This document shows, one piece after another, positions 15,001-18,000 of a DNA stretch of 26,402 nt. Location of the stretch: positions 1 through 26,402 of the IMG/VR virus record IMGVR_UViG_2541047828_000003; one strand, given 5' to 3'. Source of the stretch: a virus (lineage: Duplodnaviria; Heunggongvirae; Uroviricota; Caudoviricetes). Position numbers: made by a program. Numbering within the stretch: the first letter of the stretch is position 1; every line of letters starts with the position of its first letter.

Positions 15001-18000
15001 GTTTGATGACATGCGCAGAAAGGCTGTAAACGGCAAATCTGATTATCTGGTTGCGAAAGGGGTAGGTGATTTTACATTCCCCGTGTTGCCCGATGGATCT
15101 CTGTTGCTGGCGCTGGTGGATAAATCCGGCGCAGTCACAGCAGCACAGACAATTACCTCACATGGTGAAAAAAGACTCCTGACAGGTTCAGCAAAGCGGG
15201 GGGCATATCACGCCATAAACGCACCAGAAACAACACAGAGCATCTTAATCGCAGAAGGGCTGGCAACGGCATTATCTGCCCATTTAATTCGTCCAGAGGC
15301 GCTGACAGTGGCGGCGATTGATGCCGGGAACCTGTTATATGTCGCCCAGGTACTGCGGGATAAATTTCCTTCAGCACAAATCATCATTGCTGCGGATAAC
15401 GACCACAGCGAAGGAAGACAAAACACGGGGAGAATAGCAGCAGAAAAAGCAGCTTTATCTGTTTCTGGATGGGTGGCATTACCCCCGACAGATCACAAAG
15501 CAGACTGGAATGATTACCACCAAAAACACGGCATTAAATGCGCCACAGAAGCGTTCAATAAATCAATGTACCAACCACAGGGTAATGGCGTGAAACAGGA
15601 GCCACAGACCATTGAAGGAAGCGATTTTAAGGTTATGGATACCGACCCACTGAAACCAAGAATAGAAAGCCGCGAGGATGGTATTTATTGGGTATCTCCG
15701 AGAGCTGACAGCCAGAGTGGAGAAATCATCAATAACGAAAGCTGGTTATGTTCTCCGTTAAGCGTTATCGGTACTGGCAGAGACGATAAAGACCAGTATC
15801 TCATTCTGCGCTGGCTGTCGTTTGGTTCTGAAACGCCGACAACCGCTGCCATTCCACTGGCTGATATTGGTGAACGTGAAGGATGGCGCACACTTAAAGC
15901 TGGTGGGGTAAATGTCACGACCAAAAGCAGCCTCAGAGCAATACTGGCAGACTGGCTACAACGCAGTGGCTCTCGTGAATTGTGGCGTGTTGCTCATGCC
16001 ACTGGCTGGCAATGCGGAGCGTACATCATGCCTGATGGGGAAATCATCGGAACACCTGAAAATCCTGTGCTGTTCAGCGGGAGAAGCTCAGCCGCAGCCG
16101 GATATACCGTCTCAGGGAGCGCGAAAAGCTGGCGTGATAACGTGGCGCGTCTGGCCTTTGGTAACTATTCAATGATGACCGGGATCGGCGCAGCACTGGC
16201 AGCGCCATTGATTGGGCTGGTGGGCGCTGACGGGTTCGGCATTCATTTCTATGAGCAGTCGAGCGCAGGTAAGACCACCACGGCAAACGTGGCGAGCAGC
16301 TTATACGGCAACCCTGATTTACTGCGGCTGACGTGGTACGGAACCGCGCTGGGGCTGGCAAATGAGGCCGCCGCCCACAATGATGGATTAATGCCGCTTG
16401 ATGAAGTTGGTCAGGGCGCTGATCCTGTCAGCGTTTCACAGTCTGCCTATGCGTTATTTAACGGTGTAGGGAAACTGCAAGGCGCTAAAGACGGTGGAAA
16501 CCGGGATCTAAAACGCTGGCGTACAGTGGCAATCAGCACCGGAGAAATGGATTTAGAAACATTTATCGCTACTTCCGGGCGAAAAACTAAAGCCGGGCAA
16601 CTGGTGCGACTGCTGAATATTCCGTTGAGTAAAGCAGTACGCTTTCACGATTATCAGAACGGAAAACAGCACGCAGACGCACTGAAAGACGCTTACCAGC
16701 ATCACCATGGCGCAGCCGGGCGTGAGTGGATTAAATGGCTGGCAGACCACCAGCAACAGGCAATTAAAACTGTTCGTGACTGCGAAAGCAGATGGAGAAG
16801 TCTGATCCCATCCGATTATGGTGAGCAGGTTCACCGTGTAGCCGCGCGATTTGCCATTCTGGAGGGCGCATTGCTGTTAGGCGAGGTTGTAACAGGCTGG
16901 GATGCTCAGATATGCCGTGATGCGATACAGCACAGCTATAACGCATGGTTGCGCGAGTTCGGCACAGGTAACAAAGAACATCAGCAGATTATTGAACAAA
17001 CGGAGGCATTTCTTAATGCCTATGGGCTTAGCCGTTTTGCACCATTTCCATACAGCCCGGCAGATTTGCCCATCAAAGATTTAGCCGGATACCGTCAGCG
17101 TGGAGAACATGACGAAAGCCCAATGATTTTCTACACATTCCCGGCCACATTTGAAAAGGAGATCGCATGTGGTTTCAACGCAAAACAGTTTGCTGAAGTG
17201 TTGAAAAAAGCCGGGATGCTAACCCCACCAAACAGCGGTCGTGGATACCAAAGAAAATCACCACGTATTCAGGGACGACAAATAAACGTTTATGTACTCA
17301 ATTACCAGCCGGGAGATTATAACTCATCTGAAGAATGAGCTTCTTCATGTGCGTAGAAAAGGTGTTGGTTCAGTTGGTTCAGTTGGTTCAATTTGTAAAG
17401 AGTATTGTTTTATAAGGATTTTATTCTTTTTATTGAACCAACACTGAACCAACAATACGGTATTTTGAACCAACACAATGTGACTGAATTGATGCGCACA
17501 ACACCTGGCTGGCATCAGAGAGTGTTTTACGAGACTTTCGTAAAATCCTGTGTACAAGGGCGTGACGTTTTTGAAAGTGAGCACTACGAAATTTTCGTAG
17601 TTCAGAAAACAGGCCCTGAGAAGTTGTTATGCCTGTTCAGCAAACCATCCGCATAGCTGATCGCGAATCAAATTACCAATGGAGCCAGAAGTAAGGGCAG
17701 AACTGAAAAGCGCCTGCCGTGAAGAGTAATGCGACACCATAAATATAGTTTTTAGAGTCCATAAAAAACCTGTCAAAACCTGACACACAGAACGATGCCA
17801 CCAGCTACTGATCGGTGGCATTTTTTTGTGCTATTTGTTTCATATTTTGCAATTACGATGATGAATATTGCGATTTGTGAAACTATAATAACTGTTGTTT
17901 TATACAGTTCTAAGGGGGCGTTATGGCTGTTTCAGTAAAGCCGGTATTGATAAGTGAGAAGCAAATGGAAGCGATAAAGAAAATTCAGGAAGAGCAGCGT

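What the first reader, a model, noticed from the sequence alone, without database searches (positions are those of the whole stretch)
17361..17476. Iteron-type origin immediately downstream of the primase-helicase gene
Three tandem GTTGGTTCA 9-mers, a ~40-bp AT-rich spacer, then three inverted TGAACCAAC copies. This layout is typical of origins bound by a cognate initiator, here presumably the adjacent alpha-like primase-helicase.
Basis: partly seen in the sequence, partly recalled or inferred. Interest (0 to 1): 0.55.

Follow-up and report, generated by a model that had tools for sequence, protein, structure and literature searches.

The report
Split iteron origin of a PICI
The repeats are very probably the replication origin of an EcCIMP1-type phage satellite island in E. 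coli, a known kind of origin, but here it is only one of two mirror-image halves that sit 7.4 kb apart around a block of phage DNA-ejection genes.

Summary
GTTGGTTCA occurs three times in tandem (17364-17390), then a 43-bp spacer (84% A+T), then three inverted copies (17434, 17445, 17466), starting 25 nt after the stop of a 919-aa primase-helicase.

The window holds an EcCIMP1-type phage-inducible chromosomal island (PICI). [quoted passage not shown] is the published PICI/SaPI origin layout.

Comparative evidence is strong:
- 53 of 62 homologous loci have a 9-10-mer repeated at least 4 times right after the gene, against 0.5% of control windows.
- The word changes between lineages and tracks residues 892-894 in a C-terminal module that matches a DNA-bound winged-helix protein.
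- That C-terminal region structurally matches the SaPIbov1 Rep initiator.

In relatives the two units are contiguous (~300 bp). Here, in EcCIMP1 itself and in five other genera, 6-9 kb of cargo separates them; in this window the cargo is P22-type ejection genes.

This is a new member of a known kind, with an undescribed split architecture reminiscent of P4 ori/crr. Replication itself was not tested.

The parts
8077..8095 (+). Left island border: 3' fragment of tRNA-Thr (ACTCCTATTATCGGCACCA), the att core of the island
   Evidence: Homology to E. coli MP1 EcCIMP1 begins inside its tRNA-Thr gene. ARAGORN finds no intact tRNA in the window.
8261..9475 (+). Island integrase, followed by AlpA (9903-10106), an antirepressor (10550-11383) and small ORFs
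   Evidence: PHROG integrase, excisionase and Ant hits. RefSeq annotation of an identical copy.
14579..17338 (+). Pri-Rep initiator (919 aa). It has a Zn-ribbon and Toprim primase, a DUF927 helicase (Walker A near residues 564-567), then a C-terminal helical bundle and a beta-alpha-alpha-beta-beta module (residues ~849-909) that matches a DNA-bound winged-helix protein. The iteron-tracking residues 892-894 lie in this module.
17364..17390 (+). Origin unit 1: three contiguous GTTGGTTCA iterons (T3)
   Evidence: Iteron columns are 98% conserved across 15 loci from different genera.
17391..17433 (.). Origin unit 1: AT-rich core (84% A+T, conserved TTTATAAGG), the presumed melting site
   Evidence: Published PICI/SaPI origins have an AT-rich centre (PMC6092414, PMC9371898).
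17434..17474 (-). Origin unit 1: three inverted iterons (TGAACCAAC on the + strand) at 17434, 17445 and 17466, spaced 11 and 21 bp (S3)
17505..17514 (+). CTGGCTGGCA motif. In relatives with a contiguous origin it lies in the centre between the two units. Role unknown.
   Evidence: window, L004, L007, L008, L029.
18101..22759 (+). Cargo between the two units: DUF2824 plus P22 gp7-, gp20- and gp16-like DNA-ejection protein genes
   Evidence: Pfam and PHROG. RefSeq annotation. Equivalent to EcCIMP1_017-019 (PMC11773190).
24173..24358 (-). Second AlpA-family gene (alpA_1 of EcCIMP1), facing away from unit 2
   Evidence: Pfam Phage_AlpA.. PMC11773190.
24876..24926 (+). Origin unit 2: three spaced GTTGGTTCA iterons at 24876, 24897 and 24918 (21-bp spacing)
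24927..24969 (.). Origin unit 2: AT-rich core (79% A+T)
   Evidence: It is homologous to the right-hand AT core of the contiguous origin in L029.
24970..24996 (-). Origin unit 2: three contiguous inverted iterons (TGAACCAAC x3), the mirror image of 17364-17390
25033..25320 (+). PerC-family regulator gene. In several relatives it directly follows the origin.
   Evidence: Pfam PerC. Synteny in relatives.

Best explanation
The 17364-17474 array is a replication-origin unit of an EcCIMP1-type phage-inducible chromosomal island (PICI). The likely mechanism is as follows. When a P22-like helper phage induces the island, the 919-aa Pri-Rep protein encoded just upstream binds the 9-bp iterons through its C-terminal winged-helix-like module. 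It assembles on both sides of the 43-bp AT-rich core and melts it. It loads itself as the replicative helicase and primes synthesis with its own N-terminal Toprim primase. Host polymerase then extends the primers. A second, mirror-image unit at 24876-24996 carries the same iterons. The two together correspond to the single contiguous, two-fold symmetric ~300-bp origin seen in relatives, here pulled 7.4 kb apart by cargo. I think unit 1 is sufficient as a minimal origin. Unit 2 is probably a second initiator-binding and melting site that either fires as well or cooperates with unit 1 by looping, as P4 crr does with ori. What is shown: the anatomy, conservation, co-variation, protein homology and fold. 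What is inferred: binding, melting, self-loading, and any cooperation between the units.
Against: There is no experimental replication, binding or melting data for this element or for EcCIMP1's origin; the EcCIMP1 paper does not mention an origin. Co-variation rests on a limited number of independent lineages. The C-terminal module has no detectable sequence similarity to any solved DNA-binding domain or to the P4 alpha origin-binding domain, so the winged-helix assignment rests on a predicted structure. The role of unit 2 is open: some relatives show only one unit within the 10 kb available (L025, L026).
Confidence: 0.85

Rival explanations
1. The repeats are transcriptional operator sites, or copy-control 'handcuffing' sites. 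Pri-Rep or another island regulator would use them to control the inward-facing operons (the ejection genes from unit 1, alpA_1 from unit 2) or perC, rather than to start replication.
For: Plasmid iterons often double as autoregulatory or handcuffing sites (general knowledge; review PMC4980987). Each unit faces an operon, and unit 2 lies 36 nt upstream of perC.
Against: There are no sigma-70-like promoters in or next to either unit. Unit 1 lies 3' of its cognate gene, not at its promoter. Every unit has an AT-rich core flanked by opposed iterons, which an operator does not need. In relatives the genes next to the array vary while pri-rep is constant.
Confidence: 0.06
2. The repeats are a packaging or recognition site (pac-like) through which the helper phage's terminase, or an island protein, selects island DNA for encapsidation.
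For: EcCIMP1 lacks terS and capsid genes, and its packaging signal is unknown (PMC11773190). The arrays flank the virion-related module.
Against: The word co-varies with the Pri-Rep C-terminus. The array keeps its position next to pri-rep in islands with quite different cargo and presumably different helpers, such as tape-measure versus ejection proteins. The layout equals experimentally defined SaPI/PICI origins.
Confidence: 0.04
3. The two inverted clusters are recombination substrates or borders of a mobile or invertible cassette (the 7.4-kb ejection module). The similarity to an origin would then be incidental.
For: About 55 nt of perfect inverted repeat brackets a discrete cargo block. 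Cargo differs between strains and genera.
Against: Among 5426 complete E. coli genomes, none carries the junction expected from inversion (0 records cover at least 80% of it). The same arrays occur contiguously, with no cargo, in many relatives. No transposase or invertase lies between them.
Confidence: 0.03

Closest known systems
SaPI / PICI replication origins (SaPIbov1, SaPI1, SaPI5 Rep-ori; E. coli EcCICFT073 pri-rep-ori)
   Same: The origin lies immediately 3' of the rep/pri-rep gene. Two iteron sets in opposite orientation flank an AT-rich centre. The initiator is itself the helicase, is fused to or paired with a primase, and has a C-terminal region structurally matching SaPIbov1 Rep (PMC9371898, PMC6092414). 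The element is an int-alpA-pri-rep island mobilised by a helper phage (PMC11773190).
   Different: The iterons are 9 bp, not 5-6 bp as in SaPIs. The published E. coli PICI EcCI042 uses another initiator family (a 466-aa AAA_25/RepA-type helicase) and another word (AAAGTGAGG-type). Here there are two complete mirror-image units, contiguous in relatives and split by 6-9 kb of cargo in this island. I did not find this described.
Satellite phage P4 bipartite origin (ori + crr) with alpha protein
   Same: One iteron element sits directly after the primase-helicase gene (crr after alpha). A second element with the same iterons lies kilobases away, between an AlpA-family gene on the - strand and a + strand gene. 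Iterons occur in both orientations, some at 9-bp spacing. The N-terminal Zn-ribbon/Toprim primase is homologous (33% identity).
   Different: The helicase is DUF927/Cch/SaPI-Rep type, whereas alpha has D5_N/DUF5906/Pox_D5. The C-terminal region has no detectable similarity to alpha's (hhalign probability 0.3%). No sid, delta, psu or epsilon genes are present. The two P4 elements are not mirror copies of each other. Whether both units are required here is unknown.
EcCIMP1 (E. coli MP1 PICI, helper phage Kapi1)
   Same: Gene order is the same, and many proteins carry identical RefSeq accessions. The integration region is the same (tRNA-Thr, proA ... yagU). Window 8077-19393 is 99.2% identical to MP1, and both origin units are present.
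   Different: The gp16-like gene and the right-hand end, including the perC allele, differ. The spaced iterons of unit 1 are at 21 and 21 bp in MP1 against 11 and 21 bp here. In the window another integrase-bearing element lies to the left of the island instead of an intact tRNA-Thr.
Classical iteron replicons (F, R6K, pPS10, RK2; lambda O-ori)
   Same: Short repeats bound by a cognate initiator lie next to an AT-rich unwinding element.
   Different: Those use direct repeats and a small Rep/O protein that recruits the host DnaB, usually with DnaA boxes. Here the iterons are opposed sets, the initiator is the helicase-primase itself, and no DnaA box lies near either unit.

Membership tests
PICI/SaPI-type origin | Located immediately 3' of the rep / pri-rep gene | tested here: met
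   The array starts 25 nt after the stop codon. The position is the same in 59 of 62 homologous loci.
PICI/SaPI-type origin | At least two iterons on each side of an AT-rich centre, pointing in opposite directions | tested here: met
   Three plus three iterons flank a 43-bp core of 84% A+T. Unit 2 has the same layout.
PICI/SaPI-type origin | The initiator is a Rep-type self-loading helicase with a C-terminal winged-helix iteron reader | tested here: met
PICI/SaPI-type origin | Iteron sequence is specific to the cognate Rep | tested here: met
   There are at least 12 iteron words across lineages. Residues 892-894 and the surrounding motif change with the word in independent backgrounds. This evidence is computational only.
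PICI/SaPI-type origin | The pri-rep plus ori segment drives autonomous replication, and ori deletion abolishes it | not testable with these tools
   Shown for EcCICFT073 and for SaPIs in the literature (PMC6092414), but not for this allele.
PICI (host element) | int-alpA-pri-rep island of about 10-18 kb, integrated at a specific att site, that excises and transfers when a helper phage is induced | tested here: met
   Gene content is shown. Near-identity to EcCIMP1 is shown. EcCIMP1's helper-dependent excision and transfer are published (PMC11773190). Behaviour of this exact copy was not tested.
P4 ori/crr system | Two separated cis elements share the same iterons, one of them directly downstream of the primase-helicase gene | tested here: met
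   for the window; for P4.
P4 ori/crr system | The initiator is homologous to alpha throughout (D5/SF3 helicase plus alpha-type C-terminal origin-binding domain) | tested here: not met
   Only residues 8-362 align to alpha. The Pfam architectures differ. The C-terminal profile against the alpha C-terminus gives probability 0.3%.
P4 ori/crr system | P4-like satellite gene set (sid, delta, psu, epsilon, cos) | tested here: not met
   PHROG, Pfam and RefSeq annotation of the island find none of these.
P4 ori/crr system | Both cis elements are required for replication | not testable with these tools
   This needs deletion analysis.
Classical iteron plasmid origin | Direct repeats bound by a small Rep that recruits host DnaB, with DnaA boxes | tested here: not met
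   The iterons are opposed sets. The initiator is a 919-aa primase-helicase. The only TTWTNCACA match in the window is at 1950.

The most novel reading that the evidence does not exclude
The EcCIMP1 family uses a bipartite origin. Two mirror-image Pri-Rep loading sites are contiguous in the ancestral form. They have been separated repeatedly, in at least six genera, by insertion of a helper-matched virion DNA-delivery module (ejection proteins, tape measure or SLT protein) exactly at the origin's centre. The two halves would still cooperate over 6-9 kb by initiator-mediated looping, as a functional analogue of P4 ori/crr that arose in a different helicase family. The origin centre would also act as a preferred cargo-insertion site.
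Probability: 0.3. Interest if true: 0.55.

Novelty: new member of a known kind. Interest (0 to 1): 0.38.

Why it matters
It supplies the missing origin annotation for EcCIMP1-type PICIs, which occur in roughly a tenth of complete E. coli genomes (574 of 5426 match) and widely in Enterobacterales. It also gives a testable specificity code: residues 892-894 against iteron positions 5-6. That code could be used to predict replication compatibility between co-resident satellites, or to build orthogonal replicons. The split, mirror-symmetric layout raises a concrete question about how self-loading helicases use two distant loading sites. It also marks the origin centre as a place where satellites acquire helper-specific genes.

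Tried and rejected
- **Invertible cassette.** I built the junction expected after inversion between the two units and searched 5426 E. coli genomes. No record covers at least 80% of it. Rejected.
- **Structured RNA.** An Rfam scan of 17000-25400 gave only two sub-threshold miRNA-model hits on the hairpin-like repeat. Rejected.
- **Promoter or operator.** No sigma-70-like sites lie near either unit.
- **Homology of the C-terminus to the P4 alpha origin-binding domain.** hhalign probability 0.3%. A profile against PDB sequences gave no hits at E up to 10.
- **Single-sequence AlphaFold of residues 685-919.** pLDDT was 39, so the model was unusable and was not interpreted. It was replaced by an 81-sequence alignment model.
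- **Second att core.** I searched the window for a second copy of the att core to fix the right island border. No exact repeat of 12 nt or more was found. The right end is only bracketed, between 25320 and the LysR remnant at about 25992.
- **Sliding-window identity to locate the specificity region.** This was uninformative. The per-column discrimination test worked.
- **Identity with the published EcCI042.** That is a different island at the tqsA site with a different initiator.
- **DnaA boxes.** None lie near the units.

Full report
**1. Observation**

The sequence at 17361-17476 is as described.
- GTTGGTTCA occurs three times head to tail (17364-17390).
- A 43-bp spacer follows (17391-17433), 84% A+T against 55% for the whole window.
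- TGAACCAAC, the reverse complement, occurs at 17434, 17445 and 17466, spaced 11 and 21 bp.
- The array begins 25 nt after the stop codon of the 919-aa ORF 14579-17338.

An exact 9-mer is expected about 0.2 times in this window (my arithmetic), yet 12 exact copies exist. With one mismatch allowed there are 20 matches against 6.2 +/- 2.6 in shuffles, and none of 100 shuffles reaches 20.

They form a second cluster: three spaced copies at 24876, 24897 and 24918, an AT-rich 43-mer, then three contiguous inverted copies at 24970-24996. Aligned in reverse complement, this cluster is a mirror copy of the first, with about 55 nt identical.

**2. What the window is**

- The 919-aa protein has a primase Zn-ribbon, a Toprim domain and DUF927.
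- Upstream lie an integrase, an AlpA-type excisionase or regulator, an antirepressor, and Ash- and Icd-like genes.
- Between the two clusters lie DUF2824 and P22 gp7-, gp20- and gp16-like DNA-ejection genes on the + strand. Small ORFs and a second AlpA-family gene lie on the - strand. A PerC-family gene follows cluster 2.

The DNA is E. coli. 574 of 5426 complete genomes match the primase-end/cluster-1 region, with a median of two places per genome because the query also hits the inverted second cluster.

The island matches EcCIMP1 of E. coli MP1 gene for gene. Window 8077-19393 is 99.2% identical to it, starting inside tRNA-Thr, which marks the left att border. EcCIMP1 is a published PICI that excises and is transferred when the P22-like phage Kapi1 is induced. 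The paper notes the primase, the 'DNA transfer'/DUF2824 genes, the oppositely oriented alpA_1 and the PerC-like gene, but says nothing about an origin or iterons (PMC11773190). EcCIMP1 itself carries both clusters, 8.4 kb apart.

**3. Comparative test of the origin idea**

I fetched 80 loci encoding relatives of the primase-helicase from one genome per species, spanning 27-99% identity.
- Of 62 loci with enough downstream DNA, 59 have a repeated 8-10-mer within 500 nt after the gene. 58 have it in both orientations.
- 53 meet a strict criterion: a 9-mer or longer repeated at least 4 times. Only 6 of 1280 random 530-nt windows from the same loci meet it.
- Arrays start 26-176 nt after the end of the gene and contain 3-12 copies. 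Each holds a 40-nt window of 65-95% A+T.
- The word is lineage-specific: GTTGGTTCA, GTTGTCTCA, GTCGGTTCA, TGTGGTTCA, GTTATCCCA, ACTGGTAACA, AGGTGTAACA, ATGTAGTACA, AGTGGGTACA and others.
- Within the GTTGGTTCA group, across 15 loci from different genera, iteron columns are 98% identical and all other columns 66% (Mann-Whitney p=4e-20). The spacer sequence drifts but remains AT-rich.

This pattern is what is expected of binding sites for a co-evolving protein placed around an unwinding element.

**4. Who reads the iterons**

Among 21 proteins with GTTGGTTCA arrays and 7 with GTTGTCTCA arrays, only 5 of 996 alignment columns separate the groups completely. Both groups contain members that are only 52-56% identical overall to the rest. 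Three of the five columns are consecutive, at residues 892-894: R-K-S versus G/N-R-V/T. The surrounding motif G-R-G-Y-Q-RKS-P-R-I takes a different form in every other iteron class. AlpA, integrase and the other island genes do not follow the iteron word, and several loci with the same word lack them.

Structural evidence points the same way.
- Residues 403-814 match SaPIbov1 Rep (PDB 8tch, E=2.4e-11) and, weakly, the SCCmec helicase Cch.
- A single-sequence structure prediction failed (pLDDT 39). A model of residues 690-919 built on an 81-sequence alignment is confident (pLDDT 85.8).
- The model is a helical bundle followed by strand-helix-helix-strand-strand. Residues 892-894 lie in the beta region after the second helix.

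SaPI Reps are known to be self-loading helicases whose C-terminal winged helix binds iterons. Those iterons lie immediately downstream of rep, on both sides of an AT-rich centre, and origin binding and melting are ATP-independent (PMC9371898).

**5. Architecture: one origin in two halves**

In relatives such as L029 and L031 the whole element is contiguous, about 300 bp, and two-fold symmetric. It reads: tandem iterons, AT core, then three or four spaced inverted iterons; a ~55-bp centre containing CTGGCTGGCA; then spaced iterons, AT core and tandem inverted iterons. Variants with 10-12 iterons occur in L004-L008 and others.

Window cluster 1 plus the CTGGCTGGCA at 17505-17514 corresponds to the left half. 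Cluster 2 corresponds to the right half, including its AT core and the following TTTCTGCTTAT-like sequence. So in this island 7.4 kb of cargo lies at the centre of the origin.

The same split, 5.9-9.0 kb wide, occurs in L013, L019, L024, L036 and L038, with different cargo:
- a P4 Beta-family protein and an SLT-domain protein in L038
- SSB and a tape-measure protein in L036
- perC and an 858-aa protein in L024

Other relatives show a single unit within the 10 kb available, for example L025 and L026. Each unit on its own already satisfies the published definition of a PICI origin.

**6. Mechanism proposed (inferred)**

- Helper induction leads to expression of Pri-Rep.
- The C-terminal module binds the 9-mers on both sides of the AT core.
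- Oligomerisation melts the core.
- The DUF927 ring helicase loads itself, and the fused Toprim primase primes.

The spaced iterons are 11 and 21 bp apart, about one and two helical turns. In MP1 they are 21 and 21 bp apart, so the difference between the islands is about one turn. The tandem iterons are 9 bp apart.

Two mirror units would allow two helicases to be loaded in opposite directions. When the units are separated they may act as two origins, or interact through bound initiator. I rate unit 1 as sufficient and unit 2 as auxiliary, with low certainty on the second point.

**7. Rivals**

- Operator or handcuffing role: no promoters were found nearby, and an operator does not explain the AT core or the position 3' of the gene.
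- Packaging site: the word tracks the initiator rather than the cargo.
- Invertible or mobile cassette: no inverted junction in 5426 genomes, and contiguous versions exist with no cargo.
- Structured RNA: no Rfam family. As single-stranded DNA the unit would fold into a long hairpin (-29.8 kcal/mol, z=-7.1), but this follows automatically from opposed iterons.

**8. Comparison with known systems**

The closest match is the PICI/SaPI origin. [quoted passage not shown] They showed that the EcCICFT073 pri-rep-ori segment replicates a plasmid (PMC6092414). Their EcCI042 is a different island with an AAA_25/RepA-type helicase and AAAGTGAGG-type repeats, so the present Pri-Rep/iteron pair is another allele.

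P4 is the closest analogue for the two-site layout.
- In the P4 record, crr lies directly after alpha. ori lies 4.7 kb away, between an AlpA-family gene on the - strand and sid on the + strand. Both carry the same iterons.
- Here unit 1 follows pri-rep, and unit 2 lies between alpA_1 (-) and perC (+).
- Membership fails, however. Only the primase part is homologous to alpha. The helicase and C-terminal domains belong to other families. No P4 late genes are present.

Classical iteron plasmids differ in repeat orientation, in the type of initiator, and in their use of DnaA boxes, which are absent here.

**9. Verdict**

This is a new, so far unannotated member of the known PICI-type origins, in an already described PICI family. 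The added value is threefold: a second mirror unit, evidence that the origin is split by cargo in several genera, and a mapped candidate specificity determinant. All functional steps remain to be shown experimentally.

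Noticed in passing
window 1-8076: A different, low-GC (30-45%) element lies to the left of the island. 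It has a replication-initiator-like ORF (1-558), a major-head-protein-like ORF (2656-3684), a 613-aa ORF matching a tape-measure PHROG, a tail-fibre/endolysin-like ORF, and its own integrase on the - strand (6657-8021) abutting the tRNA-Thr fragment. It looks like a second satellite or prophage remnant integrated in tandem at the same att site.
   Followed up: partly
window 18101-22759; L036:16198-18912; L038:16258-18012: The cargo enclosed by the split origin repeatedly includes a large virion DNA-delivery-type protein. Here it is P22-type ejection proteins (the helper of EcCIMP1 is P22-like). In Leclercia it is a tape-measure protein, and in Cedecea an SLT-transglycosylase protein. This suggests the satellites carry helper-matched DNA-delivery proteins.
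   Followed up: partly
window 17505-17514: The motif CTGGCTGGCA(GTG) is conserved just after the left origin unit in the window, L004, L007, L008 and L029. It marks the centre of the contiguous origins and the point where the cargo begins here. Its function is unknown.
   Followed up: no
window ~23751-23847: A stretch of about 95 nt inside the cargo matches, at 93-96% identity, sequences annotated next to IS110-family transposases and a 'putative zinc ribbon protein'. Most listed rows of a search that matched 3107 records are of this kind. It may be an IS110-associated end or a target-like sequence.
   Followed up: no
L083 (E. coli MP1), reverse complement 11606-11718, compared with window 17364-17474: The spaced iterons of unit 1 are 21 and 21 bp apart in EcCIMP1 but 11 and 21 bp apart in the window, because of a ~10-bp repeat difference. 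The spacing therefore changes by about one helical turn.
   Followed up: partly
window 17391-17433 and relatives: A short TTTATAAGG-like core inside the AT-rich spacer is conserved across genera while the rest of the spacer drifts. It could be a host-factor site or a preferred melting or priming point.
   Followed up: no
L076 (Beggiatoa MAG), 40-556 nt after the gene: A 27%-identical homologue in a distant gammaproteobacterium is followed by three tandem copies of a complete unit, 17 AGTGGGTAC iterons in all. The origin plan therefore extends far beyond Enterobacterales.
   Followed up: no
L084 (E. coli 042, 4.20-4.22 Mb): Strain 042 carries an EcCIMP1-like island with the same ejection module at a different chromosomal site (next to dinD/yicG), in addition to the published EcCI042 at tqsA.
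   Followed up: partly
window 17322-17354: An imperfect hairpin overlaps the pri-rep stop codon (arms 17322-17335 and 17341-17354). The following TCACATGCGTAG-like sequence is partly conserved in relatives. It has no T-run, so it is not a typical intrinsic terminator.
   Followed up: no
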